Positions 69 through 39,408 of a stretch of DNA of 64,000 bases are shown in pieces. Position 1 is the first letter of the stretch, and the number at the start of each line of letters is the position of its first letter. Source of the stretch: a virus (Duplodnaviria; Caudoviricetes); IMG/VR virus record IMGVR_UViG_2936514734_000001, positions 175,375 to 239,374 of that record; one strand, 5' to 3'. The translations under genes were made by a program, and so were the position numbers. Under the pieces are notes generated by a model. That model saw nothing but the letters and a program-made list of their open reading frames with translations. It was not told the DNA's origin and made no database searches.

Positions 69-239
69 GTTTAATGAATTCTCATGTTCTTAGTTTTTGT
101 AGTCTTTTAGGTTACTAACTATCAATTAGCTTGTTAGTTGTTTTTATGTTCGTTGTGATTTGTGATTTTGTTTAGTTGTTAGTCTAACTGACAAGTTAAT
201 AACCTAAATGGAGTACACAACTGTTTAACAGGTACTTTA

Positions 240-652
240 TACTTTTGGTAAGCTGCCGAGTTACGTTAGACCAGAAGATACACCTATCCCTTGGAAGGGG
301 AAAAAGGTGTAAATAGCTACTTTACTTTTGTATAAGTGCCTGAGAACTTATGAGCCACCGTTATGTTACACGAGATTTCTCTCTAAGTAAGCACAACATC
401 AATCCTCCCCGATGCTGTATCGCTTACTTACTATGTCCCCGTAAGGACTAAGGATTCCTCCCAACCTTTTTATTGCAAGAGGTAGTTGTCACCTCTCTGA
501 GACTCCTTTTCCACAATCCATAACGGTAGATTGCTTGCCTAATGAAAAGTACGCTGATATTATTTGCAGTTGCTTCAGCTCGCCTGACCTTTTATTTTCA
601 CGTCGTTTAAGGGCGATTCGACGATTATGTATTCAGTTATTGTGCCTACATA
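240..652 (-). ncRNA. Candidate large structured non-coding RNA
   Basis: No ORF; dense inverted repeats (taagtaagc/gcttactta, accgttatg/cataacggt long-range, agaggt/acctct, cgtcg/cgacg, acacct/aggtgt). Strand inferred from flanking genes. Confidence 0.45.
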
Positions 653-759
653 AAACAACCCTTTAGTTTTAAAAAGTCAATAGGTCAGGAGTAAGTTATA
701 TAATTTAATTTATTCTGACAATTATAGAAAACAAAAAAGAGAAGGCTACAAAAACCTTC

Positions 760-1185
760 TCAGGAAGATACTTTACGTATAGATTTAACTAATATACGAA
801 ACGGATCATCATCTTGTTTAACCGTTATAGTTGTATTTGCCTCCGATACAAAGTCGCATACTTTTTCGGGTCTAAACACAATACCGGTAGTAATTATAAT
901 ATCCCCAATAGCAATATCCAGTTGGTCCCAAAATACTGGTGGTACCACTACAAGTAATTCTCCAAGAGTATCATCAATTGTTACAAATATAATCCGCTGC
1001 CTTTGATCATCAATCAGCATACCTGTATCGACTATATATTTAACTTTACCACCGCATGTAACTTCATCTTTTTGTTTGCTACTTTTTTGAATAGTATAAG
1101 AGAATGCTGTTATATGTGGCTTAATAGTATCGATAATATTTTTAATCTCTTTTTGTCTTTCTTTTTCGTGATTAGTTAATGGCAA
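760..1185 (-). CDS. OB-fold nucleic-acid-binding protein (resembles the DnaE OB domain)
   Basis: FVTIDDTLGELLVVV...GDIIITTG pattern; likely TTG start at 1185 behind GAAAGGGG, overlapping the RNase H stop. Confidence 0.55.
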   Translation of the reverse strand: MPLTNHEKERQKEIKNIIDTIKPHITAFSYTIQKSSKQKDEVTCGGKVKYIVDTGMLIDDQRQRIIFVTIDDTLGELLVVVPPVFWDQLDIAIGDIIITTGIVFRPEKVCDFVSEANTTITVKQDDDPFRILVKSIRKVSS

Positions 1186-1852
1186 ATTCTTCGCCCCTTT
1201 CATACATATCCATGAGTTGATTAACAAGCGCATCTGTGATTTTATTGTGTTCTCTTGGTACATGCTTCAACTCTACATTAGGGAATGAGTACAATTTATT
1301 CTTTAATTCTAGGGCGTAATCTCTAAATATCTTTTGTGCAGGTAGTTTAGTTGATACATGCTGTACCATGGATGCACTATCTGTTACAAATATGATTCTG
1401 TCTGCTTTAACCTTATATTTTTCTACAAACAATAAAGCTTGTAGTAAGCCATGATACTCCGCAAGAGTCGAATTAATATCTACTGTTTCACCTGTTGGTA
1501 AAGTAATTTTGTCACCAATAAATGTCGCATCATGTTTTAACATCTTTTGATCACCGTAGATAGCAAAAGCACTAGCCGATAATGAACGTAAGTTGTTGTC
1601 ATGATTATTTCGAACACCTCCATCAGTAAAGACAACCACAGTGTTATATTTCTCTTGAAATGTTTTCTGAGTCTTTAAATCTTCTAATAGAGCGCCTACA
1701 TCGTATCCATTTTCCTTCATCTCTTTCAATAGCAAATCTTGTTTTAAAGAAATTTCTTTTGCTGAACTATGATTACCGCTATCAACTTGTTCATAAAAAG
1801 AAAAAAACAGATGACTAAACTCACTAGCCATCTGCTCGACTGTATTAACCAA
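1172..1852 (-). CDS. Ribonuclease HI-family protein with N-terminal extension
   Basis: Motifs FTDGG, AEYHGL, TDS, HVPREHNKITDAL (D-E-D-D catalytic set). Confidence 0.85.
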   Translation of the reverse strand: MVNTVEQMASEFSHLFFSFYEQVDSGNHSSAKEISLKQDLLLKEMKENGYDVGALLEDLKTQKTFQEKYNTVVVFTDGGVRNNHDNNLRSLSASAFAIYGDQKMLKHDATFIGDKITLPTGETVDINSTLAEYHGLLQALLFVEKYKVKADRIIFVTDSASMVQHVSTKLPAQKIFRDYALELKNKLYSFPNVELKHVPREHNKITDALVNQLMDMYERGEEFAIN

Positions 1853-2720
1853 GGTATTGATTAATGATACTTTCTTTATTTAGGAACGTGCGGTAAATTC
1901 CTTTTCGCGTATCAAAAGTGATAGCAAAACAATGTAATCCAGGCATATCCTCATTATCTATTCTTGCAGTTAGGAGGATATTTGCAAAGTTAAACAATAG
2001 GTTAGCAGCTGTAATGTTAGTCATAATGTTTTGTGGGTGAGATACCGCTGCTTCGTCACAACTTAGCTCTGTAGGTAGTTTATCCGCACCTTCTAGTACT
2101 TCAGGAAACATTTCACCTACCATTGGTGTGCGGAACCAAGAGTTTTGACCAAGTTCATTTACATAACCTCTTCCTGGTAAAAATCCGCATACAACTTGAC
2201 CATTCAAGAATTCATTACCACTACTTAATGAAAAAACGCCTCTAGTTTTTTGTTGAAGCTCTAATGCTGCCTCATGAATGAATACGCGTGTTTTATTATT
2301 ATCAACACAATCAACTAATACAGGAATCATAGGAGGTTCATTTTCCAATAAAGATAAAACCAACTTAGTTAACATTTCTGTATTAGTGATATATTCATCT
2401 AAATATTGAATGTTTGTGCTAAAAGCAACACCGTAACGGGTAGATAGAACTTCTGCTTTATTCTTTTCTAAATCCTTTTCTACAAAGTTCTGACGATTAA
2501 GGTTAGATAAAGACACAGTATCTGCATCAATAAGAACTAACTTATGCGGAGGTAGTCCTTCCATTTTTCTTAATTTATTTGTAATTGAGATTTGTCTTGC
2601 TAGGTTAGGAATAAGGTAACCACCTGTTCCACCCGCACCCACTACTACGAATAGTTTAGATATGTGATATGATGTGTCAAGATTGTATGTAGTTTCTAAA
2701 TTTAATTGTAACGTTGACAT
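1845..2720 (-). CDS. ThiF/E1-like ubiquitin-activating enzyme (PRTRC ThiF type)
   Basis: VVGAGGTGG, DADTVSLSNLNRQNF, DCVDNNKTR, GNE..GQV, LSCDEA (candidate catalytic Cys). Confidence 0.9.
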   Translation of the reverse strand: MSTLQLNLETTYNLDTSYHISKLFVVVGAGGTGGYLIPNLARQISITNKLRKMEGLPPHKLVLIDADTVSLSNLNRQNFVEKDLEKNKAEVLSTRYGVAFSTNIQYLDEYITNTEMLTKLVLSLLENEPPMIPVLVDCVDNNKTRVFIHEAALELQQKTRGVFSLSSGNEFLNGQVVCGFLPGRGYVNELGQNSWFRTPMVGEMFPEVLEGADKLPTELSCDEAAVSHPQNIMTNITAANLLFNFANILLTARIDNEDMPGLHCFAITFDTRKGIYRTFLNKESIINQYLG

Positions 2721-2776
2721 ATTAATTCCCCTCTCTATAACCGAAAAGTGTAGGGGCGTTAGCCCCCACTATCTTA

Positions 2777-4042
2777 TTAAATTTGGTTTTGTTTAACCGC
2801 ACCGATTGCGGCTTCAATAATTTGGTTGTAACCTAACTTTGTATAATCAGCTGTGATATCAGCAACATTATCCGCTACATCCAACTTCCTTACTTCATCT
2901 TTTAAGTCTAAGAACTGAACAATTTCTGCGTTTTCAAAATCATTCGTACTGAATGGTAGTGCTGAATGACCACCATATCCTTCATTTAGAAGGTGACTGC
3001 TGTACATAGCTTCCTCCAAGCCGTAGAGATCGCCTTCAAAATCCTCTGGAAATAATGTTGTTTGCCCTGATAAAGGCTGAAGTTTTCCGTTTGCTTTGGC
3101 GAGATAACTGTTACTGGGATAGGTTGATTTCAAATTCGGAACATATTTCTTAGTATGTTGTTCCATCCATTCCGCTGGGTATTCAATATTTTCGAATGGT
3201 CCTCGATAAAGCTCCTCTGTAGTTTCTGTAAACGTCTGTGACTCGAAACCTGGAACAGTAGAGCTAACAACATGAGTTGATGTCGTAACCATCATAGGCC
3301 AATCAAACAATACAGAAGGGCATACTAATTTTTTAGATTTACCTGTAACATAACGAAATGCGAAAGCAGGTTGTTCATTTTTAATCTGACCCCATACTCC
3401 ATAAAACTGCGTGCTGTTTTCATTGGCGTCATCTGTAGAGCTAAAAAATGCATTCATAGTATGGTGTGAATGAGTTTCTGCTAATAAGGATAAGTTTTGT
3501 CTTAGCCAGTCAACCATTGGGTCGCCATGAAATTCTGACAAACTAGCACTATTTTCTTGTCGTGGAACATACACAACTAATTGCCCATCAACCAACAACC
3601 CCTTCATTGGAGTATCATCAGAGTACTTAACTGGCAATGCTTTGTTGTCTTTATTCCAAAAGAAAAGCAATGATGCTTCAGTTCCATCCTTAGCGTGAAC
3701 ATCACGATAAAAGCTTAAAGCCATTTGAAGATACTTGAATGGAATTTTCGGAACAAGTAGTTCTGTTCCTTCAGTCATTTTATTTAAACCAGGGATGCTA
3801 TCTTTAAAATCTTGTACCTTTGTTTTAAATACTGCTGTATCAGTTTTCTCTACACGGAATAAACCGTTAGCTGCTGTCACAAAGTTAATCTTTTTCAAAG
3901 AGTCTGTGTTGTAATTAGAGTCATAAGCTAAGTATTCCGTTACTTGACTTGCAATCTGACTCGCTAGTAGATTTGATAGATTAAGTGTCATTTGTATGCT
4001 CTCCATTCTAACTTTTTCTCTTGTAATAAATGTTATTAACAC
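2777..4042 (-). CDS. JAB/MPN+ metallopeptidase (PRTRC protein A-like)
   Basis: JAMM motif HSHHTMNAFFSSTDD plus upstream Glu (GTEA); start may be 4006. Confidence 0.88.
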   Translation of the reverse strand: MLITFITREKVRMESIQMTLNLSNLLASQIASQVTEYLAYDSNYNTDSLKKINFVTAANGLFRVEKTDTAVFKTKVQDFKDSIPGLNKMTEGTELLVPKIPFKYLQMALSFYRDVHAKDGTEASLLFFWNKDNKALPVKYSDDTPMKGLLVDGQLVVYVPRQENSASLSEFHGDPMVDWLRQNLSLLAETHSHHTMNAFFSSTDDANENSTQFYGVWGQIKNEQPAFAFRYVTGKSKKLVCPSVLFDWPMMVTTSTHVVSSTVPGFESQTFTETTEELYRGPFENIEYPAEWMEQHTKKYVPNLKSTYPSNSYLAKANGKLQPLSGQTTLFPEDFEGDLYGLEEAMYSSHLLNEGYGGHSALPFSTNDFENAEIVQFLDLKDEVRKLDVADNVADITADYTKLGYNQIIEAAIGAVKQNQI

Positions 4043-4134
4043 ATATTCCCCTTATAAACAGTGTTACTTAGTTTATTCTAGGGGAATCTGTTATTTTATA
4101 GGTTAATACAGTGTTTATGAGTTGATTCTCAAAG

Positions 4135-4905
4135 TCATTCAAAGATGCCTGGAAGATAGTTTTTCACTGCTTGTTGCACATCTAATGTTGAAGATGATTT
4201 AAGCGAGTCAAAGGGATAAACAAATTCTTCTCCCGCTTCTTTGCTTGCTTGTAGTTTTCTAGATAAATCAACCATATGATAAACAGCACAATCTGTATTA
4301 AATGGTGAATATTCCTCGGATTCAGGATCTGGATTCCATTCAAATTCTTTTACTCGATTATGAGAAAGATCAAAGTTAAATGGTTGAGCAAAGAAACGTG
4401 CTGGAATATTTTGAATCGATTTACCCGTTGGTACCTCTGGATTTTCATGTCCCCAACAAATACCATGAGCAACACCGATATTAGGAAAAGGCGCATGTAA
4501 GACCTTATCCTTAAATGAAAGCAATTCGTGTTTAAGTACGTACATCATAGAATGTCTTAAACGTTTTCTTCCATTTCCATCAGTAAATACTTCAAAAATC
4601 CAAAGCATTGGCGGTACTGGAATAGTAAACTCTTTAGGAACACCAGTATCACGCGATGCAAAAACAACCTGTCTCTCTGTTGCAGGTGTGGTCATTACAT
4701 AGCCTTCGTAATGATTCTTACGATAATACTTAACAACTCCCCATTGAGAAGGAAGAAGCGGTGTTTCCATGGCCTGCTCCTTCATAAAGATTTCTTGAAT
4801 AGTTTCGATGTTTGTATGTTTAATTGTTTTAATCCCTTGCTCATTAACAGTCGTTACTGTTACCTTTTCTGGTTCTAAAACAATAGTTGTGCTTGGTGTA
4901 GCCAT
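4135..4905 (-). CDS. Prokaryotic E2-like ubiquitin-conjugating protein (PRTRC protein B-like)
   Basis: HAPFPNI...GICWG motif with Cys, followed by FF.QPFN.DL; sits beside E1/JAB. Confidence 0.8.
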   Translation of the reverse strand: MATPSTTIVLEPEKVTVTTVNEQGIKTIKHTNIETIQEIFMKEQAMETPLLPSQWGVVKYYRKNHYEGYVMTTPATERQVVFASRDTGVPKEFTIPVPPMLWIFEVFTDGNGRKRLRHSMMYVLKHELLSFKDKVLHAPFPNIGVAHGICWGHENPEVPTGKSIQNIPARFFAQPFNFDLSHNRVKEFEWNPDPESEEYSPFNTDCAVYHMVDLSRKLQASKEAGEEFVYPFDSLKSSSTLDVQQAVKNYLPGIFE

Positions 4906-5177
4906 TATTTTACCTCCCTAATGTTCAATACGCCTTGAATGAATTCTGCATTTTTATCACTATTAAAATCCGCTTTGATTTTATCAATATCAATTCCTAG
5001 CTCTACTGCTTGCTCAAAGGATATTCCAGCTTCACTCATTACTTCATCCGTAATTTTCTCTTCTAAAAGCTCACCCTTATCTAAAGAGGCGGACTGAATA
5101 GCTTCCTCTTTAGATAATGCCTTTACCTTATATTTTTGTTCAGCAAGAACTAATAAAGTTACCTCATACTCTTTCAT
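4905..5177 (-). CDS. Hypothetical protein in the Ubl operon
   Basis: GGAGG SD; stop overlaps the E2 start. Confidence 0.7.
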   Translation of the reverse strand: MKEYEVTLLVLAEQKYKVKALSKEEAIQSASLDKGELLEEKITDEVMSEAGISFEQAVELGIDIDKIKADFNSDKNAEFIQGVLNIREVK

Positions 5178-5191
5178 TAGTAATCCTCCAA

Positions 5192-6829
5192 TCAGCCTGC
5201 AAAGCTATGAATAGTGAGCAATGCCTGTTGTTTTGTACTGTGTCGATCTACAAATTTATAAATAGAATAAAGACCAGGTGGTAATTGTAATGCACGCAAT
5301 GCCTTATCTATATCTTGATGTATTGTGTACAATCTTTTTACTCCCTCTTCATCTATTCGTATCGCGCCTATTGTACCTGAGCTGTCTCTAACAACTACAA
5401 AGCCATTAGGATGTTTCGCATTTTTTGTAAGTAATTCCTTACTGAAATCTATAGAAGTTCTTTCGAAACTGTATAAATCATTATCAATGAAAGTTGAAGC
5501 TGAACTTGAGTCTTCTTCACTTTGTCCTTCTAACAGTTTAGAAGTCGTAAGGAATTTCTCCACAACCGCTTTAGGATCTAACGATCTATCTTGTTTAATA
5601 AAATCAACTACAGCACTAAATACTGTATTCTCCTGCATTTCAAGTTTTTCTAATGGTTTCTCTAAAGATTCCACTAGTTTCTTACAGATTTCAATTTCTT
5701 CTACTAACTCTTCCGGTATTAATTGTTTAAAATCTTCATGTGATGCTTTTACAAAGATATTATTATTAATAATGTAAGGATTAGCTCCATCTAGACTACG
5801 AGGTGATTCATTATCATAATCAGTGTATTGACCTACTCCTAAATACTTAAGTTCCTCAGTATCAGCGGGCAAAGTATCTGAAATGATAATTGGCTTAGCT
5901 ACATAACTCGCATCATCACTCATATCATGTGAAGAATAGATATGGACAGAAGAACCTAAGAAAAGCAGATCCTCAAATGATGGCTCTTTAACAAACACAT
6001 CTCTATTGTGTTCTACACAAAGATTGCGTAAAGCTTCATCTTCTATAAGTGAAACGGGAACAATCATCTTAGAAAGCAACTCTTTAAGAATAGAAACTCC
6101 AAACTTCATATGTTCTTCACGTAGTGATTCTTTTAGTCGTTCATTAAAAGCATCAACCGCATCATTTAAAGTGCTGTAGTCATCAGATAAATCTTGGATA
6201 TACCTTTTCTCTGATTTAACTACCTGATAAATATTTGAGAAATATGTGCTACCTGCACTTAGTCCAAATAAGCGTCCTCTACTATCATGTGGAAGACAGA
6301 AATCCCCACTTAAAGGAATCTTATTTCTCACGAGAATCAAGTTATCATCTTCATCTTTTGTGCATAGGCTCCTAATACGGTCATAATAGTAATTAGAACG
6401 AAACTTACGCCAAAAACCTGAGTTGTAACTTTGCAAAAATGAATCTCTAAAGCGAGCCATATTCTTATACTTTTCAAACTTCTCAATCATAGCTGCTGTC
6501 TCTTCGTCAATTACTAATTTAAAGACATCAGAATGATTATCGTTACTTACTAATTCTTCGTGAGTAATCTCATAGTATTGATTTAGCTCCTTAAGGATTT
6601 CATTAGTAACTTCAAAGAATAGCTGCTTAGATTGTTCAAGATTATTAGAAGGAACATTCTCCATCTTTTCTTGCAGGATATTAATAATTTCTGTAAAGCG
6701 TTCCTCGGGCATACTATTCTTTAGACTATGTAAAAGATTAAAAACCCCACGTCTATATTCAACTTCTGTAGTCATAAGCTCATTTGACATGTAAACTCTC
6801 CTTTCTTTATTAGATGTAATCGACATCAA
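5192..6829 (-). CDS. Hypothetical acidic ~530-aa protein in the Ubl operon
   Basis: Long ORF; likely start 6790 after AAGGAGAG; no motif recognised. Confidence 0.75.
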   Translation of the reverse strand: MMSITSNKERRVYMSNELMTTEVEYRRGVFNLLHSLKNSMPEERFTEIINILQEKMENVPSNNLEQSKQLFFEVTNEILKELNQYYEITHEELVSNDNHSDVFKLVIDEETAAMIEKFEKYKNMARFRDSFLQSYNSGFWRKFRSNYYYDRIRSLCTKDEDDNLILVRNKIPLSGDFCLPHDSRGRLFGLSAGSTYFSNIYQVVKSEKRYIQDLSDDYSTLNDAVDAFNERLKESLREEHMKFGVSILKELLSKMIVPVSLIEDEALRNLCVEHNRDVFVKEPSFEDLLFLGSSVHIYSSHDMSDDASYVAKPIIISDTLPADTEELKYLGVGQYTDYDNESPRSLDGANPYIINNNIFVKASHEDFKQLIPEELVEEIEICKKLVESLEKPLEKLEMQENTVFSAVVDFIKQDRSLDPKAVVEKFLTTSKLLEGQSEEDSSSASTFIDNDLYSFERTSIDFSKELLTKNAKHPNGFVVVRDSSGTIGAIRIDEEGVKRLYTIHQDIDKALRALQLPPGLYSIYKFVDRHSTKQQALLTIHSFAG

Positions 6830-7085
6830 AAGAGAAAACGTTTGGTAGTCGATCTAAACCAACAAGGTATTTCTTATACTCTTGCAAGTACGTTTTCAAT
6901 TGACGATCCATATTGTTAATAATGTTTGAGTTTTGATTTGTCATGTATTCATTAAATTCAAGAAAAGTCATTGGCTTTGTTAAGGTAGCAGAAGCTTCTG
7001 CAATTTCCGATGGCCAAAATTCAGTTTCTTGCACTTGTTCAAAACCATTTATAACTCTTAAAGTGAGCGGCGCTTGCTTTTCCAT
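6810..7085 (-). CDS. Hypothetical protein
   Basis: ORF with GGAGG SD before MEKQAP at 7085. Confidence 0.6.
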   Translation of the reverse strand: MEKQAPLTLRVINGFEQVQETEFWPSEIAEASATLTKPMTFLEFNEYMTNQNSNIINNMDRQLKTYLQEYKKYLVGLDRLPNVFSFDVDYI

Positions 7086-7254
7086 AAAGGAACCTCCGTA
7101 TCTATTAAAATAAAACAAAATATGAGGGAAACCAGTTTTAAACACCAGTTTCCCTTTCAATAAAACATATTCTGTTAGAATCCACTAGAAATCAGTGGAT
7201 GTGACCTTAAAAAGGTACTGACTATCTATTGGATTCTAGTATTTTCTATTAGAA

Positions 7255-7962
7255 TTAGTTGCCTTTAGTTCCTGCTTTAGCAGAGAAAGTAACTGTGTTT
7301 CCATTTTGAACAACGTTAGCATTTTCTAATTCCGGAAAGTTTTCTGCCATTGCTACTTTAAGTTGGTTAAGGTCTGTTGTTGCTGGCACGTTGATTTTTG
7401 TATCACCGTAAACCACTTCTAGTTGATCTGCACCTTTTGTACCTGCTTTTGCGTTGAAGATAATTTGACCTTCATTTACTGTTACGTTAGCATTTTCTAA
7501 TTCAGGGAAGTTCTCAGCCATTGCTACTTTGATGTCCGCTAATTCAGTGCTTGCTGGTAAGTTAATTTTAGTATCTCCATAAACTACTTCTACAGTTTCC
7601 ATTTCACCCGCTCCTTTAGTTCCTGCTTTTGCTTTAAATACGATTTCATTGTCGTTCACTTGTACATCAGCGTTTTCAAGCTCCGGGAAATTCTCAGCCA
7701 TCGCTGCTTTGATGCTTGATAATTCAGTACCTACTGGTAAATCGATTTTAGTATCTCCGTAAATCACCTTTAAGTTTTCCATGTTTGTTGCCCCTTTCGT
7801 TCCTGCTTTCGCTGTGAATTCAATTACATTACCGTTTACTGCTACATTTGCATTTTCAAGTTCTGGGAAGTTTTCAGCCATAGCTACCTTAATACTTTCT
7901 AAAGCTGTACCTTCTGGAAGATTGATTTTTGTATCACCATAAATTACTTGTAATGTGTTCAT
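7255..7962 (-). CDS. Poly-ubiquitin-like precursor: four tandem Prok_Ub/PRTRC protein C-like units
   Basis: Four ~58-aa repeats, each with YGDTKI, AMAENFPELENA and ending AKAGTKG; AGAGGAG SD before ATG 7962. Confidence 0.88.
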   Translation of the reverse strand: MNTLQVIYGDTKINLPEGTALESIKVAMAENFPELENANVAVNGNVIEFTAKAGTKGATNMENLKVIYGDTKIDLPVGTELSSIKAAMAENFPELENADVQVNDNEIVFKAKAGTKGAGEMETVEVVYGDTKINLPASTELADIKVAMAENFPELENANVTVNEGQIIFNAKAGTKGADQLEVVYGDTKINVPATTDLNQLKVAMAENFPELENANVVQNGNTVTFSAKAGTKGN

Positions 7963-8139: not shown

Positions 8140-8400
8140 TTATTCCCAACCAATCAATACAGGTCCTTTAAAGTCTACAATTCCAGAAACTAATTCTAGA
8201 TGTGCTGTACCGCAATCTGGACAAATAGAAAAGATACTTTCAAATTCTGTTTTTGTATGCGGCATTCCCGCTACATTTAAGAATTCTTCAATAAGCTCTA
8301 AATCATTATTACACATTGTGCAAGTAGATTGATTTGTAGCTCCTACTTGTCTAAGGTGTTTCGTGTAATCCATCGGTACCAATACCAGTTCGTAACTCAT
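8140..8400 (-). CDS. Small zinc-ribbon protein
   Basis: CTMC ... CPDC; GGGAGG SD. Confidence 0.65.
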   Translation of the reverse strand: MSYELVLVPMDYTKHLRQVGATNQSTCTMCNNDLELIEEFLNVAGMPHTKTEFESIFSICPDCGTAHLELVSGIVDFKGPVLIGWE

Positions 8401-8806
8401 TTAATTTTTCCTCCCAATGATAAAGCCCAGCTACAGCATTCTTATTTGTAACTGGCTTCAGCTCTACATATATAGAAACTACAGTTTTATCATTTCTTAG
8501 AGTGACAATATCATCACCAGTAACGTAATAGCCTTTAATTGATATGTAGAACTCTTTAAGCGTTTGTTCTAAGTTGTTTTGATTACAATAATTAACGTAA
8601 TAGCTTTCTAGATTCTTATTAAAAGATGTAATAGAACTTATGAATCGATTATAGTGTGATCTTCCATCAAATAAGCCTCTAGTAAATCGTAATTCATATA
8701 CACCATTTGTATTAATTACTCTTTGTATAAAATGGTCAATTGATGATTCGTTCATTACACTTTCAAAAACTTCAACTGCGTCGAGTTTCTTATCTAATTT
8801 TTGCAA
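8351..8806 (-). CDS. Hypothetical protein
   Basis: ORF with GGGAGAGG SD. Confidence 0.6.
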   Translation of the reverse strand: MQKLDKKLDAVEVFESVMNESSIDHFIQRVINTNGVYELRFTRGLFDGRSHYNRFISSITSFNKNLESYYVNYCNQNNLEQTLKEFYISIKGYYVTGDDIVTLRNDKTVVSIYVELKPVTNKNAVAGLYHWEEKLNELRTGIGTDGLHETP

Positions 8807-8830
8807 CAGGATCCTCTCCCTTTATTATGC

Positions 8831-9298
8831 TTAACTAGCTTCCTGGTACTCGACTTGTTCAGATTGTACTTTTTCTTGAGCTTTTAATCTTACTTGCTTT
8901 GCATACATTTCTTGTTGCTCTTGTTTTCTAACGTGTCGAGGAAGGAACATCCTTGCGCCATTAAGACCATACGCAATGCGGTTCCAATCTGTCAAGATGG
9001 TTGTTTTGAGCAATTTCGGATTTTGTAAAATAACATTGTATGCTTCTCTTAGGGTTAAGTCATCTAAATCAATCCCTTGTTCAGTTAAGAAATCGATTGT
9101 ACTGCCCCGCTGTGTTAATAAGTCATCTAAGCCATCTTCAGTAAGATGTAGTAGTGCTTGAAATTCTTTAAAAGTAAAGCGATCTCGCACAATGTGCTTG
9201 ATTGTGGCATTAAGATTATACTTAGATAGTTTTTCAGCCACTTTTTCTCCTTCGGATGTATTGATTGTGTAAATAGTTATAAATTGATTCTCCAACAA
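8831..9298 (-). CDS. Spx/ArsC-family transcription regulator homologue lacking CxxC
   Basis: LTEDGLDDLL, QNPKLLK..I.TD..R...G, MFLPRHVRK match B. subtilis Spx (MTEDGTDEII, PGLLRRPII, FLPRKVR). Confidence 0.8.
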   Translation of the reverse strand: MLENQFITIYTINTSEGEKVAEKLSKYNLNATIKHIVRDRFTFKEFQALLHLTEDGLDDLLTQRGSTIDFLTEQGIDLDDLTLREAYNVILQNPKLLKTTILTDWNRIAYGLNGARMFLPRHVRKQEQQEMYAKQVRLKAQEKVQSEQVEYQEAS

Positions 9299-9869: not shown

Positions 9870-9986
9870 GTACTAATCTTATCATGACTTTTTTAAAAGT
9901 TCAATAGTACATATAGTTTTTCTTTGCCTTTTTTAGTCTTTTATCCTAGTAAACTACAAAAATACTATGGATTGGAGGCTTTTTTC

Positions 9987-11132
9987 ATGTCAAAAAAGCT
10001 CATTAAACTTAGCGATATTATTAAACAAGAATTCTACCAATTACCTAAACTAGTTGTTTGGAACCAGACATACCGTGAAGGATTAAGCGACGGTGCTAAA
10101 TTGCTTTACATGATTATTCGTGACCGCTTTTCATTATCTGTTCATACTTCTGAACAAGAAATTAAACAAGGTAAACCATTAACATATGTAGATCAAGACG
10201 AAAACGTATTTTGTATTTTAGACAATGGTGAAATCGAATTCACTTTAAATAAAACTAAGAAAACGGCTATTAAATGTATGCAAGAATTAGAAACCTTCGA
10301 ATTAATTGAAACAAAAGAAGTTGAAGGTGGCGCAAACAGAATCTACTTGAAAGACTTAGATTCTAGTGGAATCTCTTTAGCAACATTTATTGGCGAGAAA
10401 GATTATTATAAGCATGTTCAATCTCGCAAGAAAAAAGGCAAAGATCCATCTAAGACTTTGGAGGAATTTATCGAAGCTGCTGAAAGACGATTACAAGGTA
10501 AAGATGAAAGTAATGAATCCGACAAGAGTTCAAAAAACAGGGGTGGAAATAATACACCCCCTAGGGATGGAAAAGATACACCCCCCGGGGAGGAAGAAAG
10601 TACACCTCTAGGGGATGGAGAAACTGCACCCCCAGGGGTGGAAAAACTACACCCTAATAAGAATGACTCTAACTCTAATAACTCTAAATCACCTGAAAGT
10701 AATGAGAATGAGTTTAATGAATCTTCTTCTAGTGATAAAGAGCCTAGCGGTTTAGAAGAAGAACAACCAATGATTATCACAGTTGATAATAACTATGCTT
10801 TATTGGAGTCTATTAAGCCAATTCATGAAATATGCAAAACCCAAAAAGATATTAATGTCGTCAAAAAAGCCCTGATTGAAGCTAAAATAGAGGGTTTCTA
10901 TAAGTGTGATGTACTTAATGCAATTGGTTCACATGCTAAGAACATGAATGCTTACAGAGCTAAAGGTGAAACTATCCGCTATGAGCCTGCATTCTTTGCT
11001 AATAATCTAGTTGACCGTATCATTTCTAATGCTGCAGAAAGACAAGCTAAGTCTGAAAAAGAAGCTAAAAAAGCAAAACAACAAACCTTAAATTCTGGAC
11101 GTATACCCTTTTATAACTTTCTAGAAGAATAA
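9987..11132 (+). CDS. repA: Plasmid replication initiator, RepA_N family
   Basis: FYQLPK...LSDGAKLLY..IRDRFSLS...VD...EL...LI...NRIYL; GGAGG SD before ATG 9987; C-terminal FYNFLEE. Confidence 0.88.
   Translation: MSKKLIKLSDIIKQEFYQLPKLVVWNQTYREGLSDGAKLLYMIIRDRFSLSVHTSEQEIKQGKPLTYVDQDENVFCILDNGEIEFTLNKTKKTAIKCMQELETFELIETKEVEGGANRIYLKDLDSSGISLATFIGEKDYYKHVQSRKKKGKDPSKTLEEFIEAAERRLQGKDESNESDKSSKNRGGNNTPPRDGKDTPPGEEESTPLGDGETAPPGVEKLHPNKNDSNSNNSKSPESNENEFNESSSSDKEPSGLEEEQPMIITVDNNYALLESIKPIHEICKTQKDINVVKKALIEAKIEGFYKCDVLNAIGSHAKNMNAYRAKGETIRYEPAFFANNLVDRIISNAAERQAKSEKEAKKAKQQTLNSGRIPFYNFLEE
10540..10654 (+). repeat. Five ~24-bp iterons inside repA (probable oriV)
   Basis: GGG(G/A)(T/G)GG-A-rich-T(A/G)CACCC units at ~10540, 10564, 10588, 10612, 10635. 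Confidence 0.75.
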
Positions 11133-11285
11133 GATTCTAGGGGAATCCACTAGAATACATTGTTTTGTAACAAAAAATCATATAATGTCGTAAAAATCTA
11201 GTACAATTTATTAGCAATGTATGGTATATTGAGTGAGAACACATACAAATATTAATTGATTTAGAGAGAGGAGTTTCGATTTTTT

Positions 11286-12275
11286 ATGGCATTAAATTTG
11301 ATTTTAGGTGTTGACGCTGGGCTTAACTCAGTTAAAGTTGTAGGTCAAAAAGGTGAAACAAAATTCGCATCTGTTGTCACTAGAAAACCTGCACATGCTA
11401 AGACTTTCAAAGGCGTTTTAAGCTATGAGGAAAAGAATAAACAAAACAGATTTGAATTAACAGTTGATAACAAAGAATATTACTTAGGTGAGCATGCGAT
11501 CTTTGCTACTAAAAACAGCGGTGTAAGACGTGGTGGCGGTAGTGATGGTACTGGCTCTAAGAATAATACTAAAGCATTTATCCGCGCTCTAGGTGGAATC
11601 TGCTTATATATTGATCATTATGAAAGATTCGATGATACAGAGATTAATGTATTTTTAACATATGGTACTCCTATAAACAGTGCAACAAATGATGATGAAA
11701 TCGAAGAAATTGAAGAGCGCTTCAAAAACCAAGGACGTCCTATCGAGCTTACATATAACGGCGTTAAACTAAGTATTTCAATCAAGGACATTATTGTATT
11801 ACCAGAAGGTGCAGCGGCATATTACGCCAAAGAGGATTATGAAGAAGAAGATGTATATATCCTTGATGCTGGATCACAAACTGTTAACCTTACACACTTA
11901 GAAGATGGAGCTCCTGTTCCAAATAGCTCTGACAACTTAACTGTAGGTGTTGAATTCTACAAAGAAACATACCCTGACAATACCGCTGAAGTATTGAGCG
12001 AGGATGCTATTGAGATGTTAAGTGAAGAGTTAAGATGGCCTAAAGGTTCGAAAATTCATGTGTGTGGTGGATATGCTAATCAATTAGCTTTGGCATTTAA
12101 TGTAGTAGCTGATGGTAACTATACTGCAGAAGTATTAGTGCCAGAGATTCCTTTATCAGGAAGACGTGTTAAGACACTTGACCCTATTTATGCAAATGCA
12201 ACAGGTCTTTTCTTCCTTGCTCTAGAAGCTTTCCAAGATTACATCAATGTTGCTAAGCCAAAGGTAAAAGGGTGA
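11286..12275 (+). CDS. parM: ParM/Alp actin-like segregation ATPase
   Basis: GVDAGLNSVK (phosphate 1), LPEGAAA, ILDAGSQTVN (phosphate 2), CGGYA, YANATG. Confidence 0.88.
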   Translation: MALNLILGVDAGLNSVKVVGQKGETKFASVVTRKPAHAKTFKGVLSYEEKNKQNRFELTVDNKEYYLGEHAIFATKNSGVRRGGGSDGTGSKNNTKAFIRALGGICLYIDHYERFDDTEINVFLTYGTPINSATNDDEIEEIEERFKNQGRPIELTYNGVKLSISIKDIIVLPEGAAAYYAKEDYEEEDVYILDAGSQTVNLTHLEDGAPVPNSSDNLTVGVEFYKETYPDNTAEVLSEDAIEMLSEELRWPKGSKIHVCGGYANQLALAFNVVADGNYTAEVLVPEIPLSGRRVKTLDPIYANATGLFFLALEAFQDYINVAKPKVKG

Positions 12276-15544: not shown

Positions 15545-15630
15545 GAATGTGAACGGGATTCGAACCCGTGACCCAAGTACCTAGCATACGCATTATAGGT
15601 CCATCGCTCTACCTACTGAGCTATCACATC
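15545..15630 (-). tRNA. Atypical tRNA-like gene, anticodon not assignable (possibly TAT); no encoded CCA
   Basis: Acceptor GATGTGA/TCACATT, D-arm GCTC-AGTAGGTA-GAGC, T-arm ACGGG-TTCGAAT-CCCGT; 35 nt between the D and T arms. Confidence 0.65.
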
Positions 15631-37079: not shown

Positions 37080-39395
37080 GTGATAGTATTGGCTGAACAA
37101 GAAAAACCAGTCGTTAATAAAACGAAAGTTAATGAAACGACAAACTCCTATCATCAATCCACGGAAACCCGCTCTACGCCTCACTTAAAGACAAATGTAC
37201 CTGATGTAAAAGCCGCTTCAAATTTCCTTAAAAGAAACCAAGGAAAGATTGCTCTTGGTGCTATAGGGCTTGGTCTAGCAAAATCAGTGATAGATGGAGA
37301 AGAAGACGATATCGTATCTTCTGCTGAAAAAGGAATAAAATCTGGTGCTATTACTGCAGGTATTTCTTATGGTGCTCAACACTTATTGAAAACAGAAACT
37401 GTACAGGACCTTGTAAAGGGTGAAGTATCAGATGTTGGTAAGAGCATCATTAAGAAAGCTAATACACAACGTAAAATGCTTGCTGGTGGAGGAAAGCTAA
37501 AAACAGCTTACAAAATTGGTTTGTATGCAATGGGAGCCGCTACTGTTTTGGATGTTGCCCAACGTGCTGGCGACACTTTGGAGTCTGCAAATATAAAAAG
37601 ACAAGAAGAACAAAAGCTTAAAGAAAAGAGAAAGAAGCAACAAAAGAAGAATAAGCAGTATGCATATGGACACATTGACCAGGGTGAAATCGTATTTGAT
37701 TTGTTCAATCAAAGAACAGGACATTACAAAATGGGTAATGCCAAATTTAATTAAAGGCGGTGCCACTTATGGCTACAAGCAATGCAGTTAAAAAAGTATT
37801 AGAAAGATTGAGTAATCGTGGTGCTAATAGAGCTTCTAGAAAAGCCTTAAATACTGAAATTAGCAAACAAAAGAATTTAGGTACTTTCTTACCTGATGAT
37901 GCTTATGATGGCAATTTAATTACTCCTACTCGATTACGTACAAAACAACAACGTACCGCTCGTCAGAATAGTAGAGTTGAAAAGAAGCGAAGAAGAGCAG
38001 ATGAAGGTTTAGCTAGTTTAAATACTATCAATCCACAAGAAAGACGTCTCCCTGCAATTGCTTCTACAACTAAGACCCTCTACGGATCAGCTCGTGCTAA
38101 CTTAGGAGAACCGGGTAGTTTAAAACGTGCAGGAATAGGTGTAATTCAATCCTCAGCAGCCTCAGCAGCAGTATCTGGTGGAATGGCTGCTATTCAAGGA
38201 AATGACCCCTGGGAAGCGGCTAAATCCGGAGCTTTTAAAGGTGCAGTTGCTGGTGTAGGTTATCAAGGTTTAAAGGCCGCTACACACGCTCAGACAGGCT
38301 CTATTAAGGGCAATTTAAAGCACATAGCTTCTACTACTAAACAGACTTATCAAGCTCACACAGTGGCGGGAAACACGGCTATGAGGACAACTAAGAATGG
38401 TGTATCTAATCAATTGAAAAGGGTACTAGATGCTAATCAAGCAAGCCGTCAAACTGAAAGTATTTTTGGTCTTAATAAATAGGAGGTGCATGTATCATGG
38501 CTCTTATTAAAGGCATGAAGAACCTAGCTCGAATAGGTGTGAAAAATACAAAAAGTGTCGTTGCTCAATATGAGAATGGCTTAGTTAATGCTACTGAACA
38601 TATTGGTAAAATGGCACAAATTAAAAAACCAATTATAGATGTAAAAGATAAAGAGGGTAACATCAAGAAAAGCTTAGGTAATTTATATACCGGTAAGAAA
38701 GCTAATCCTTTATGGGTTGGGGCTGCAGGTGGAGCTTATCTTGTAGGAAAGAATCTGTACAAAAGTGCAGATAAGCAAACTATGCAACCTCTTAAACTAG
38801 CAACTATGAATAACTATCAAGAAATTGGTTCACCTGACATCATGATGTATGACGGTGTAGGTCAAGACCGCGCTCCTAAAAATATGAATGCAGACGGTAG
38901 TATTGTATTTGGCTTACACAATATGAGAAGGGGGTAGTTTAAGTGGCAAGTTTAGCCGGATTAGGAGTTAGTGCATTAAAAACAATTGGCTCCGTTGGTA
39001 AAAGAAAAGCATTAACAGCGGGTGGTCTAGCCTTTGGTGCAGATACCGCTATGAATCTATATGGTGGAGATGATCTAGGAACCTCTGTCATGAAAGCTGG
39101 TGTGACGGGTGTTATGGCCGCTTCTAACCCTATGCTTTACGGGGGATTAACAGCGGCTAGTCTAGCAACAGATGCTTACTGGGGAATACAACAATTTAAC
39201 TACCAGAAAAAACAATGGTGGAATGCTCAATATGCTTACAACAATGAAGTCGGCGGTAACTATGTCGATACTCAGCGAGCACAAACTATGAGACAAGCAG
39301 CTGTACAAGCTATTCAAGGAAGTAAGATGAATGCCCGAAGTGCGCTAGGTGGAGAAGCAAGAATACTTAATCCGTATTCAACAAGAAGATATTAA
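37080..39395 (+). other. Four basic Gly/Ala-rich proteins with hydrophobic stretches (37080-37754, 37760-38482, 38497-38937, 38943-39395); possible internal/ejected virion proteins
   Basis: Co-directional ORFs with SDs between the terminase genes; function inferred from composition only. Confidence 0.5.
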
Positions 39396-39408
39396 AGGAG
39401 AAAATAGC

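What the first reader, a model, noticed from the sequence alone, without database searches (positions are those of the whole stretch)
1845..7962. Phage-plasmid-encoded complete ubiquitin-like conjugation operon (poly-Ubl, E2, JAB, E1)
Seen: one co-directional block with a poly-Ubl gene, three unknown genes, an E2 (PNI...GICWG), a JAMM peptidase (HSHxxMxAFFSxTDD) and an E1 (GAGGTGG, NLNRQ, SC), all with intact catalytic residues. Known: these motifs fit the PRTRC A/B/C/ThiF families, a plasmid-borne system of unknown function normally linked to ParB. Bacterial Ubl systems with known roles (Bil, CBASS Cap2/Cap3) are anti-phage. Inference: here a virion-forming element carries its own write/erase protein-tagging pathway, next to RepA/ParMR rather than ParB. 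It could modify host or phage proteins, or counter host Ubl defences.
Basis: partly seen in the sequence, partly recalled or inferred. Interest (0 to 1): 0.92.

Follow-up and report, generated by a model that had tools for sequence, protein, structure and literature searches.

The report
Phage-plasmid polyubiquitin-like tagging operon
A 239-kb jumbo phage-plasmid of a Priestia/Bacillus-type host carries a complete ubiquitin-like tagging kit whose tag is encoded as four head-to-tail, capped copies, as in eukaryotic polyubiquitin genes; the kit belongs to a family predicted in 2006 and, in the literature I could search, never tested.

Summary
On the minus strand of 1845-7962 lie a 4x tandem ubiquitin-like (Ubl) gene, two conserved unknown genes (91 and 532 aa), one genome-specific gene (90 aa), an E2 (invariant Cys150), a JAMM/JAB peptidase and a single-domain ThiF-type E1.

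All four known parts match PRTRC A/B/C/ThiF only below the curated cut-offs. The 239-kb genome has no ParB. This is a divergent relative of PRTRC (operon type 6d of Iyer et al. 2006), not a member.

The six-gene core recurs in about 220-247-kb Bacillaceae phage-plasmids (pBtic235, pAD3) and in isolated jumbo phages (vB_BceM_WH1, Edson, KLEB27-3).

New here:
- The Ubl gene has 1 to 7 repeats across relatives.
- Every repeat keeps the full C-terminal tail (K/Q)AG(T/V)KG.
- Every protein carries a variable 1-17-aa cap.
- Repeats cluster by genome.
- The model looks like beads on a string.

This fits a polyubiquitin-type precursor cut by the JAB peptidase.

Published RNA-seq shows that the pBtic235 orthologues are induced 16-40-fold by mitomycin C. 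That argues for a role in the replicative or lytic programme rather than standing defence. Targets are unknown.

This scan has already found PRTRC-like cassettes in many other phage genomes. I rate it a new variant of a known kind, interest about 0.6.

The parts
7255..7962 (-). Poly-Ubl gene, 235 aa. It holds four ubiquitin-like repeats: aa 1-57, 61-117, 121-177 and 179-234. Each ends in KAGTKG (nt 7792-7809, 7612-7629, 7432-7449, 7261-7278). The linkers are ATN, AGE and A. A one-residue Asn cap precedes the stop.
   Evidence: Prok_Ub, ThiS and PRTRC_C hits. Strong RBS at the 7962 ATG. The AF2 model gives four beta-beta-alpha-beta-beta units with low-confidence joints. The best PDB match is linear tetra-ubiquitin 7yui_A, E 1.1e-5.
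7125..7155 (-). Terminator-like hairpin (12-bp stem, T-rich tail) between the Ubl gene and p116. It is a possible attenuator that would make Ubl mRNA more abundant than enzyme mRNA.
   Evidence: Consensus scan only; no functional evidence.
6810..7085 (-). p116, probably 91 aa from the ATG at 7085. It is a small conserved partner with an invariant acidic-aromatic C-terminus: D(V/I)D(Y/F)I-COOH, or (E/D)DFI in the lytic phages.
   Evidence: No family hit. It is conserved at this position in all relatives, including WH1 gp212 and KLEB27-3 gp198. RBS.
5192..6790 (-). p545, probably 532 aa. It is a conserved multi-domain protein of unknown fold that sits where PRTRC protein F sits. Its most conserved core is aa 258-372 in the numbering of the 545-aa ORF.
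   Evidence: There are only 22 representatives among 1.84 billion proteins. No Pfam or NCBIfam family matches any of the 14 members. The AF2 model has mean pLDDT 84.3. There is no convincing PDB, Atlas or BFVD match apart from its own WH1 homologue.
4905..5177 (-). p90, a 90-aa ORF with a good RBS inserted between p545 and E2. It is specific to this genome.
   Evidence: tblastn finds it only in the window's own genome and in no relative locus.
4135..4905 (-). E2-like conjugating enzyme, 256 aa. The active-site motif (F/Y)PNIG..xGICWG lies at nt 4450-4488, with invariant Cys150 and Asn142.
   Evidence: Prok-E2_D 32.2 bits, PRTRC_B 26.9 bits. Invariant columns across 14 homologues. Alignable with pMOL28 PRTRC_B around P(F/Y)xN....IC.G.
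2777..3991 (-). JAB/JAMM metallopeptidase, 404 aa from the ATG at 3991. It has an N-terminal JAB-N domain with invariant FRVEKT Arg and FFWN Trp. The JAMM motif is TEAS...HSHHTMNAFFSSTDD (nt 3428-3472). The C-terminal ~150 aa are variable.
   Evidence: Prok-JAB 26.5 bits, PRTRC_A 36.6 bits. Alignment of 9 homologues. Coordinates.
1845..2720 (-). E1 / ThiF-family adenylyltransferase, 291 aa with a single adenylation domain. It has GAGGTGG (aa 28-34), NLNRQ (73-77) and DCVDNNKTR (137-145). Invariant Cys residues lie in VCGF (178) and LSCDE (221).
   Evidence: ThiF 60.7 bits, PRTRC_ThiF 94.6 bits. Alignment of 10 homologues. 27.6% identity to pMOL28 PRTRC ThiF.
1172..1852 (-). RNase H-like (RVT_3) gene overlapping the end of E1. 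It is always adjacent in the phage-plasmid relatives. It is probably part of the replication module rather than of the tagging system.
   Evidence: RVT_3 44.1 bits. Synteny. It is absent next to E1 in WH1 and KLEB27-3.
760..1263 (-). OB-fold protein. It is the last gene of the co-directional block and is followed by a terminator-like hairpin at 739-761.
   Evidence: Weak tRNA_anti-codon OB hit. Hairpin. Conserved in L001 and L002.
8140..9298 (-). Upstream genes of the same block: an Spx/ArsC-family protein (8831-9298), p151 (8351-8806) and a CxxC...CxxC zinc-ribbon protein p86 (8140-8400). They are conserved in the phage-plasmid relatives but not in L005 or the lytic phages, so they are not core.
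   Evidence: ArsC 29.6 bits and weak zinc-ribbon hits. Identities. Synteny.
9924..12275 (+). Divergently transcribed plasmid maintenance genes: RepA_N initiator (9924-11132) and actin-like ParM (11286-12275).
   Evidence: RepA_N 46.3 bits, ALP_N 50 bits.

Best explanation
This is a working E1-E2-peptidase protein-tagging pathway that belongs to the phage-plasmid itself.

Proposed steps:
1. The modifier is translated as a capped polyprotein of four ubiquitin-like units.
2. The operon's JAB metallopeptidase cuts after each KAGTKG. This removes the cap and linkers and releases about 6-kDa monomers with a free C-terminal glycine.
3. The single-domain ThiF-type E1, probably a homodimer like ThiF/MoeB, adenylates that glycine with ATP and takes it onto a cysteine (Cys221 or Cys178).
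4. The Ubl passes to Cys150 of the E2 and from there to lysines of target proteins. The two family-specific partners probably help as adaptor or substrate: p545, which sits where PRTRC-F sits, and p116 with its acidic-aromatic tail.
5. The JAB peptidase can also reverse the mark.

The operon is part of the replication/early block, between repA-parM and RNase H/OB-fold/DnaE. It is switched on when the element leaves dormancy. Its targets are therefore most likely phage or host proteins handled during replication and virion production, not incoming foreign phages.

Shown: the domains, the invariant catalytic residues, the precursor anatomy, the synteny and the induction of the pBtic235 orthologues. 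Inferred: every biochemical step, the cleavage, and the kind of target.
For: 1. Domain hits lie above Pfam gathering scores for Ubl, E2, JAB and E1. They have the same order as canonical PRTRC C-F-B-A-ThiF on pMOL28.

2. Catalytic residues are invariant across homologues of 44-74% identity: E2 Cys150/Asn142, the JAMM Glu/HSH/S..D motif, and the E1 GxGxxG, Arg finger, Asp and two Cys.

3. Precursor anatomy:
- Relatives with otherwise syntenic operons carry 1, 2, 3, 4, 5, 6 or 7 repeats.
- Every repeat keeps the complete tail (K/Q)AG(T/V)KG.
- Linkers are 0-3 variable residues.
- Every protein ends in a variable 1-17-aa cap.
- The single-copy pMOL28 PRTRC_C is also capped, AGAKG+AYAQI.

4. Repeats group by genome, not by position. 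Mean identity is 0.83 within a genome and 0.64 between genomes, and the window, L001, L005 and L006 form well-supported clades.

5. The AF2 model shows four separate beta-grasp-type units, with pLDDT dropping at each joint and pTM 0.31. The best PDB hits are linear tetra-ubiquitin chains.

6. The six-gene core Ubl-p116-p545-E2-JAB-E1 is kept from Bacillaceae phage-plasmids to the isolated jumbo phages WH1, Edson and KLEB27-3, at 32-37% E2 identity.

7. In pBtic235 all orthologues rise log2FC 4.0-5.3 thirty minutes after mitomycin C, and the poly-Ubl gene rises most (5.32). They fall log2FC -2.9 to -4.1 when GIL01 gp7 represses induction (PMC9700832, Supplementary Data 1 and 5). The orthologues were mapped.

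8. There is no rhodanese, ThiG or MoaE partner that would point to sulfur transfer.
Against: - There is no biochemical or genetic evidence for any step in this family.
- The E2 and JAB matches clear their Pfam thresholds only narrowly. No solved structure is reachable by sequence.
- Which E1 cysteine is catalytic, and whether a thioester forms at all, is unknown. MoeB-type E1s and Bub enzymes work without one.
- Cleavage between repeats is inferred from anatomy only. The array could act as one multi-domain modifier.
- Induction by mitomycin C applies to nearly all pBtic235 genes (240 changed), so it shows timing, not function.
- p545 and p116 have no recognisable fold or family, so their proposed adaptor or substrate role is a guess from position and co-conservation.
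Confidence: 0.65

Rival explanations
1. The operon is an anti-phage defence cargo, like Bil. The resident phage-plasmid tags structural proteins of superinfecting phages and so protects its host and itself.
For: [quoted passage not shown] Prophages and plasmids often carry defence systems. The depositors of phage vB_BceM_WH1 label its 5x Ubl protein gp211 'virion structural protein'. That would also fit a Ubl that ends up on virions.
Against: - No PADLOC model matches Ubl, E2, JAB, p116 or p545; only CBASS E1-E2 models match the E1, weakly.
- The E1 is a single 291-aa domain, unlike the tandem inactive and active domains of Bil E1.
- The cassette sits at a fixed place in the replication block of elements that are only 45-70% identical. 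It is also present in isolated jumbo phages. This is the pattern of a core gene set, not of shuffled cargo.
- The pBtic235 orthologues are low in lysogeny relative to induction and rise 16-40-fold with the lytic programme.
Confidence: 0.12
2. The tandem array is not a precursor. It acts as one multi-domain modifier, as ISG15, BilA or the three-domain Ubl3 of Bub/Bil do. Only the cap is removed, and only the last glycine is activated. The extra domains serve oligomerisation or recognition.
For: [quoted passage not shown] Four repeats is the commonest number here, which could reflect a preferred architecture.
Against: - In this family every internal repeat keeps the full C-terminal tail, including the terminal Gly and both Lys, as strictly as the last repeat does.
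- Copy number runs from 1 to 7 among close relatives with the same enzymes.
- In L009 two units abut with no linker.
- The model shows no packing between units (pTM 0.31, joints below pLDDT 55).
Confidence: 0.2
3. The Ubl/E1 pair is a sulfur-carrier system (ThiS/MoaD-like) for a cofactor or a thio-modified nucleoside made by the phage. It does not tag proteins.
For: The Ubl also matches Pfam ThiS (25.2 bits). The E1 matches ThiF/MoeB equivalog models weakly. Jumbo phages carry many nucleotide-metabolism genes.
Against: - An E2 with an invariant cysteine and a JAB peptidase are fixed parts of the cassette.
- There is no rhodanese domain on the E1 and no ThiG, MoaE or sulfurtransferase neighbour.
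- The best E1 model by far is PRTRC_ThiF (94.6 bits against 39.5 or less for ThiF/MoeB).
Confidence: 0.03

Closest known systems
PRTRC (ParB-Related, ThiF-Related Cassette; NCBIfam TIGR03734-03742), which is operon type 6d of Iyer, Burroughs & Aravind 2006 (PMC1779556). An example is pMOL28 of Cupriavidus metallidurans.
   Same: - The same four domains in the same order: Ubl, an unknown protein, E2, JAB, E1.
- The best NCBIfam hit of each part is the PRTRC model.
- The Ubl shares the (Y/F)PEL motif and a capped AG.KG C-terminus.
- The JAB has the JAB-N domain with conserved Arg and Trp, as described for 6d.
- The E2 lacks the His of HPN.
- It is carried on mobile elements.
- Bcer and Bthu were already listed under 6d in 2006.
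   Different: - All scores are below the curated cut-offs.
- There is no ParB anywhere in the 239-kb genome.
- PRTRC E, F and D are not detectable by HMM or BLAST.
- The Ubl is tandemly repeated.
- The JAB is twice as long (404 against 213 aa).
- The His after the E2 cysteine, said to be absolutely conserved in 6d, is not conserved here; invariant Asn177/Asp179 lie in that region.
- The host element is a virion-forming phage-plasmid with RepA_N/ParM.
Bil (BilABCD, types I and II) anti-phage ubiquitin-like conjugation systems.
   Same: Separate Ubl, E2, JAB-family peptidase and E1 genes lie in one operon. Conjugation chemistry is expected to be the same. Some BilA proteins have several beta-grasp domains.
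   Different: - No PADLOC defence model matches.
- The E1 here is a single adenylation domain, not tandem inactive and active domains.
- Internal beta-grasp domains of BilA are not reported to keep a C-terminal tail, whereas here each repeat does.
- The operon is encoded by the phage itself and induced with its lytic programme.
- It has extra conserved partners, p116 and p545.
Eukaryotic polyubiquitin genes (yeast UBI4, human UBB/UBC); comparison from general knowledge.
   Same: - Head-to-tail repeats, each a complete modifier ending in the glycine that is activated.
- One or a few extra residues cap the last unit, so a peptidase is needed before use.
- Copy number varies between lineages.
- Repeats within a genome resemble each other more than orthologous repeats do, which indicates concerted evolution or repeated amplification.
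- The best structural match of the model is linear tetra-ubiquitin.
   Different: - Most junctions have 1-3 linker residues.
- The repeats are not identical (65-79% in the window, up to 96% in pBtic235).
- The tail is KAGTKG, not LRLRGG.
- The presumed processing enzyme is a JAMM metallopeptidase encoded in the same operon.
- No sequence similarity to ubiquitin beyond the fold.
Bub (formerly 6E / DUF6527) operons and their three-domain Ubl3 proteins.
   Same: Bacterial operons with a multi-beta-grasp Ubl, an E1 and an E2. Iyer et al. called them 'polyUbl'.
   Different: - Bub E1 and E2 lack the catalytic cysteines, and a DUF6527 serine protease is used.
- Ubl3 is a fixed three-domain unit that dimerises and forms filaments.
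- Here both cysteines are invariant, there is no DUF6527, and the repeat number is free.

Membership tests
PRTRC (NCBIfam TIGR03734-03742) | Each component reaches the curated cut-off of its PRTRC model (A 101.8, B 131.45, C 45.95, ThiF 144.75 bits). | tested here: not met
   Scores are 36.6, 26.9, 28.4 and 94.6 bits. They are the best NCBIfam hits, but all lie below the cut-offs.
PRTRC (NCBIfam TIGR03734-03742) | A ParB-family protein is linked to the cassette (the 'ParB-Related' part of the name). | tested here: not met
   No ParB_N (PF02195) match at E <= 0.01 in the whole 239,374-bp record, which CheckV rates 100% complete. The control genomes ring. On pMOL28 ParB heads the cassette.
PRTRC (NCBIfam TIGR03734-03742) | Proteins E, F and D are present. 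| tested here: not met
   No NCBIfam hit for p116, p545 or p90, or for 14 p545 relatives. TIGR03742 finds nothing in the genome. Profiles of p116 and p545 do not match pMOL28 E or F. p545 occupies F's position. One weak structural resemblance to a PRTRC_E-containing Atlas cluster (TM 0.45 over 124 residues) is not enough.
PRTRC (NCBIfam TIGR03734-03742) | Gene order Ubl (C), F, E2 (B), JAB (A), ThiF. | tested here: met
   Window order is Ubl, p116, p545, (p90), E2, JAB, E1. pMOL28 order is C, F, B, A, ThiF.
Operon type 6d of Iyer et al. 2006 | A small beta-grasp Ubl with a conserved C-terminal glycine. | tested here: met
   Prok_Ub and ThiS hits. Beta-beta-alpha-beta-beta units in the model. 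Invariant ...KG at the end of every repeat. Here the Ubl is repeated and capped.
Operon type 6d of Iyer et al. 2006 | The JAB has an N-terminal alpha+beta domain with a conserved Arg and Trp (JAB-N). | tested here: met
   Invariant FRV.KT Arg and FFWN Trp lie N-terminal to the JAMM motif in 9 homologues. The feature is described in PMC1779556.
Operon type 6d of Iyer et al. 2006 | [quoted passage not shown] | tested here: not met
   The first half is met: (F/Y)PN replaces HPN. No invariant or nearly invariant His follows Cys150 in 14 homologues. Where pMOL28 PRTRC_B has THPNH, this family has invariant Asn177/Asp179.
Operon type 6d of Iyer et al. 2006 | A rapidly diverging, largely alpha-helical protein with conserved charged residues between Ubl and E2. 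| tested here: inconclusive
   p545 is in that position and diverges fast (16-73% identity in its family). It has invariant Ser, Asp and Gly residues. However, its model is mixed alpha/beta with three beta-rich parts.
Bil (BilABCD) defence systems | Matches to defence-system HMMs for the Bil / ISG15-like components. | tested here: inconclusive
   No PADLOC-DB v2 model matches Ubl, E2 or JAB at E <= 0.01. I did not verify which Bil types that release covers.
Bil (BilABCD) defence systems | An E1 with tandem inactive and active adenylation domains. | tested here: not met
   The E1 is 291 aa with one ThiF stretch at residues 25-158. The Bil E1 architecture is taken from PMC11601596.
Polyubiquitin-type precursor (architecture, not homology) | Head-to-tail repeats that each end in the complete activatable tail, plus a C-terminal cap. 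| tested here: met
   Four KAGTKG tails plus an Asn cap in the window. The same holds in about 30 relatives with 1-7 repeats and 1-17-aa caps.
Polyubiquitin-type precursor (architecture, not homology) | Proteolytic release of monomers by a dedicated peptidase. | not testable with these tools
   This needs co-expression or in vitro cleavage with the JAB peptidase.

The most novel reading that the evidence does not exclude
The tandem Ubl gene is a true polyubiquitin-type precursor that arose outside eukaryotes. The phage uses the released monomers for its own benefit, tagging its virion or replication proteins or host factors during lytic growth. That would be a pro-viral mirror image of the Bil defence, in which bacteria tag phage tails. 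The 'virion structural protein' label on the 5x Ubl of phage vB_BceM_WH1 would then reflect Ubl covalently carried on virions.
Probability: 0.3. Interest if true: 0.85.

Novelty: new variant of a known kind. Interest (0 to 1): 0.6.

Why it matters
Bacterial ubiquitin-like conjugation has so far been demonstrated only in defence systems (type II CBASS, Bil) and in Bub.

The PRTRC/6d branch was predicted in 2006 and is spread over large plasmids, ICEs and phages. In the literature I could search, nobody has tested its function.

This family offers an unusually tractable entry point:
- It sits in pBtic235 of the biopesticide strain B. thuringiensis israelensis. That element is inducible, forms plaques, has published RNA-seq and has a cured host.
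- It also sits in isolated B. cereus-group and B. australimaris jumbo phages.

The capped 1-7x repeat gene would be a second, independent case of the polyubiquitin gene design. It gives a simple first experiment: does the JAB peptidase cut the array into monomers?

If the phage tags its own or host proteins during lytic growth, ubiquitin-like signalling would be shown to be used by both sides of the phage-bacterium conflict.

Tried and rejected
- Expression in the window's own element: no RNA holder was listed among the sequencing runs.
- p545 fold:
  - Foldseek against PDB gave no hit at E <= 0.001.
  - VIA-align wide gave a best Z of 5.7 on helical pieces only.
  - ESM Atlas by shape stayed at TM <= 0.26 by query, with one weak PRTRC_E-type row.
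  - BFVD returned only its own WH1 homologue.
  - Atlas feature searches for p545 and p116 gave no usable hit.
  - These results do not show that the fold is new. The 545-residue model should be split into domains and searched again.
- Sequence searches of E2 and JAB against PDB chains, singly and as a profile, found nothing.
- PADLOC: nothing except weak CBASS E1-E2 hits on the E1.
- Pattern scan of GTDB species genomes with the E2 alignment: no relative found. IMG/VR gave only two pBtic235-like contigs.
- Literature:
  - No paper was found on vB_BceM_WH1 or KLEB27-3, so the basis of the 'virion structural protein' label is unknown.
  - No functional paper on PRTRC was found.
  - No paper on Prok-E2 or Prok_Ub in phages was found.
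- The clear-plaque pBtic235 deletion (about 10 kb, 12 genes) ends at repA and does not list the Ubl operon genes. It therefore says nothing about whether the operon is dispensable.
- Rfam finds no family in the insertions that split the JAB gene of two relatives.
- I considered ClpP-linked degradation, because WH1 has a ClpP. The window's genome has no ClpP.

Full report
**What is there**

The window is the last 64 kb of a single 239,374-bp virus record that CheckV rates complete. Between 760 and 9298 a minus-strand block reads, in order of transcription:
- an Spx/ArsC-family gene;
- p151;
- a zinc-ribbon protein, p86;
- a 235-aa tandem ubiquitin-like (Ubl) gene (7255-7962);
- p116;
- p545;
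- p90;
- an E2-like gene (4135-4905);
- a JAB/JAMM peptidase;
- a ThiF-type E1 (1845-2720);
- an RNase H-like gene and an OB-fold gene.

Pfam places the four known parts above their gathering scores: Prok_Ub and ThiS, Prok-E2_D, Prok-JAB and ThiF. NCBIfam's best models are PRTRC_C, B, A and ThiF. All of them score far below the curated cut-offs.

They shorten p116 to 91 aa, p545 to 532 aa and JAB to 404 aa.

The same molecule encodes a large terminase, portal, major head protein and tail sheath. It also encodes RepA_N and an actin-like ParM, transcribed divergently from the block. It has no ParB_N, no tyrosine integrase and no ClpP.

**Catalytic residues**

Fourteen E2 homologues (44-74% identical) keep the motif (F/Y)PNIG..xGICWG with invariant Asn142 and Cys150. 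The motif aligns with P(F/Y)xN....IC.G of PRTRC_B from pMOL28.

Nine JAB homologues keep four features:
- the JAB-N Arg;
- the JAB-N Trp;
- the TEAS glutamate;
- HSH-x7-S-x2-D.

Ten E1 homologues keep GAGGTG(G/S), NLNRQ, DCVDNNKTR and two cysteines, in VCGF and LSCDE. The E1 is a single 291-aa adenylation domain without rhodanese.

**Relatives and host**

The whole block is syntenic, at 47-87% protein identity, in two places:
- the 235-kb B. thuringiensis israelensis element known as pBtic235;
- the 220-kb B. velezensis plasmid pAD3.

The E2 family has only 27 clusters among 5.8 billion proteins. All that carry a name are from Bacillaceae: Gottfriedia, Priestia, Cytobacillus and Bacillus. Where the contigs are long, they are 220-247 kb.

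The closest E1 (98% identical) lies on a 237.7-kb Priestia megaterium contig, so that is the likely host.

More distant copies of the six-gene core Ubl-p116-p545-E2-JAB-E1 occur in two kinds of place:
- metagenome contigs (L011, L012);
- the isolated jumbo myoviruses vB_BceM_WH1, Edson and vB_BauM_KLEB27-3, at 32-37% E2 identity.

There the RNase H, OB-fold, Spx, p151 and p86 genes are absent, so they are neighbours and not core.

E1 relatives grade into proteins that JGI names PRTRC ThiF. They occur on 129 PLSDB plasmids, mostly from Bacillus and Clostridium, and on Cupriavidus plasmids with annotated PRTRC.

**The modifier is built like polyubiquitin**

In the window there are four 52-aa cores, each ending in KAGTKG. 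They are joined by ATN, AGE and A, and an Asn follows the last Gly.

Across relatives the number of units is:
- 1 in a Priestia contig;
- 2 in L005 and L009;
- 3 in five clusters;
- 4 in most;
- 5 in WH1, Edson and two clusters;
- 6 in L006;
- 7 in P0172.

Every unit keeps the tail (K/Q)AG(T/V)KG. Linkers are 0-3 variable residues. The single-copy PRTRC_C of pMOL28 is capped too.

Units cluster by genome rather than by position. Mean identity is 0.83 within a genome and 0.64 between genomes, and several single-genome clades are well supported. This means concerted evolution or repeated amplification.

The AlphaFold model gives four beta-beta-alpha-beta-beta units. Confidence falls at each joint, and the pTM is low. 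Its best PDB matches are linear tetra-ubiquitin chains; arrays of POTRA domains come next.

I read this as a precursor that must be cut to expose glycines, with the operon's JAB peptidase as the obvious enzyme. The rival reading is that it stays one multi-domain modifier like ISG15 or Ubl3. That reading is weakened by the strict conservation of every internal tail and by the free copy number. It is not excluded.

**The unknown partners**

p545 has only 22 representatives among 1.84 billion proteins. No Pfam or NCBIfam family matches any of 14 members. It has a conserved core around residues 258-372.

Its model is confident (mean pLDDT 84.3). It finds no convincing match in PDB, Atlas or BFVD beyond its own WH1 homologue. 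It sits where PRTRC protein F sits but shows no detectable similarity to it.

p116 is short and variable. It always ends in an acidic-aromatic C-terminus, D(V/I)D(Y/F)I or (E/D)DFI. That looks like a docking tail; this is my inference.

p90 is found only in this genome.

**When it is expressed**

I found no RNA data for the window's own element. For pBtic235, published RNA-seq taken 30 min after mitomycin C shows the orthologues rising together (PMC9700832, Supplementary Data 1):

| Orthologue | log2 fold change |
|---|---|
| Spx-like | 4.9 |
| Poly-Ubl | 5.3 |
| p115 | 4.9 |
| p526 | 4.7 |
| E2 | 4.5 |
| JAB | 4.0-4.2 |
| E1 | 4.0 |
| RNase H-like | 4.1 |
| repA | 4.6 |

All fall by log2 2.9-4.1 when the GIL01 co-repressor gp7 blocks induction (Supplementary Data 5). 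I mapped the orthologues by the tblastn coordinates.

The same paper shows that pBtic235 forms infectious myovirus particles. Its clear-plaque deletion ends at repA and leaves the Ubl operon in place.

The cassette therefore belongs to the induced replicative or lytic programme. Most pBtic235 genes behave this way, so this dates its action but does not reveal its target.

**What it most likely does**

The proposed sequence is:
1. translation of a capped polyprotein;
2. JAB cleavage after each KAGTKG;
3. adenylation and thioester formation on the E1;
4. transfer to E2 Cys150;
5. conjugation to lysines with help from p545 and p116;
6. reversal by JAB.

Several features favour targets among phage or host proteins handled during replication and assembly:
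- the fixed place in the replication block;
- the presence in lytic jumbo phages;
- the induction with the lytic programme;
- the lack of any defence-model match.

A Bil-like defence role gets about 0.12 and a sulfur-carrier role about 0.03.

One lead is worth testing. The depositors of vB_BceM_WH1 call its 5x Ubl 'virion structural protein'. No homologue with that label exists in the phage collection from which the name could have been copied. I could not find the basis for the label.

**Comparison and novelty**

The closest known kind is PRTRC, which is operon type 6d of Iyer et al. 2006. That paper already listed B. cereus and B. thuringiensis.

Membership fails on several tests:
- the curated scores;
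- ParB;
- proteins E and F;
- the histidine after the E2 cysteine that is conserved in 6d.

It passes on gene order, JAB-N, the capped glycine-ended Ubl and the missing HPN histidine.

It differs from Bil in E1 architecture and from Bub in keeping both catalytic cysteines.

Earlier agents of this scan have reported PRTRC-like cassettes in many other phage genomes. Phage carriage as such is not new to the scan. First-stage readers had also noted the tetra-Ubl with its cap on this same genome.

- the family-wide 1-7x capped repeat design with repeats clustering by genome;
- the six-gene core with two fold-orphan partners;
- the link to experimentally tractable elements;
- the published induction data.

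I rate it a new variant of a known kind, with interest 0.6.

Noticed in passing
L003:8450-8757 and L005:7093-7423 (relatives' JAB genes; the site corresponds to window ~3464/3465): In two relatives the JAB gene is split at exactly the same point, inside the JAMM HSH|H motif. The insertions are 308 and 331 nt long and 72% identical. Each follows a T, ends in G and begins with an in-frame stop, so they look like a group I intron. Rfam finds no family. The window's genome has no copy.
   Followed up: partly
L013:4048-4947 (Bacillus phage vB_BceM_WH1 gp211): The 5x tandem Ubl of this isolated jumbo phage is annotated 'virion structural protein' by its depositors. No similarly labelled homologue exists in the phage collection and no paper was found, so the basis of the label (possibly virion proteomics) is unknown.
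   Followed up: partly
window 7125-7155 and 2750-2769 (minus strand): There are terminator-like hairpins just after the Ubl gene and between JAB and E1. The first could attenuate read-through, so that the modifier is made in excess over the enzymes.
   Followed up: no
window 8831-9298 and the intergenic region to 9924: The Spx/ArsC-family gene at the head of the block and the repA-proximal intergenic region are the most conserved parts of the locus. They show 82-87% protein identity and 77.5% DNA identity to pAD3, against 47-70% protein identity for the Ubl-system proteins.
   Followed up: no
window 8140-8400: p86 is a small CxxC...CxxC zinc-ribbon protein directly upstream of the Ubl gene. 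It is 66% identical in pBtic235 and pAD3, but absent from L005 and from the lytic phages.
   Followed up: partly
L012:822-1863: In one distant relative, two signal-peptide-bearing DUF5065 genes are inserted between the poly-Ubl gene and the p116-like gene.
   Followed up: no
L004 (Priestia megaterium GCA_037994625 contig, 241 kb): Here the whole block, including repA, Ubl, p545, JAB and E1, is broken into many short ORFs. This reflects either a low-quality assembly or a decaying copy.
   Followed up: no
window 39349-42300: The large-terminase ORF is 983 aa, but the terminase profiles match only residues ~470-947. The N-terminal ~470 residues are unexplained.
   Followed up: no
window 86-689: Other first-stage readers flagged an ORF-free, highly paired stretch here, downstream of the OB-fold gene and before the dnaE block. 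Rfam at gathering threshold finds nothing in it; the only Rfam hit in the window is a tRNA at 15545-15630 (minus strand).
   Followed up: no
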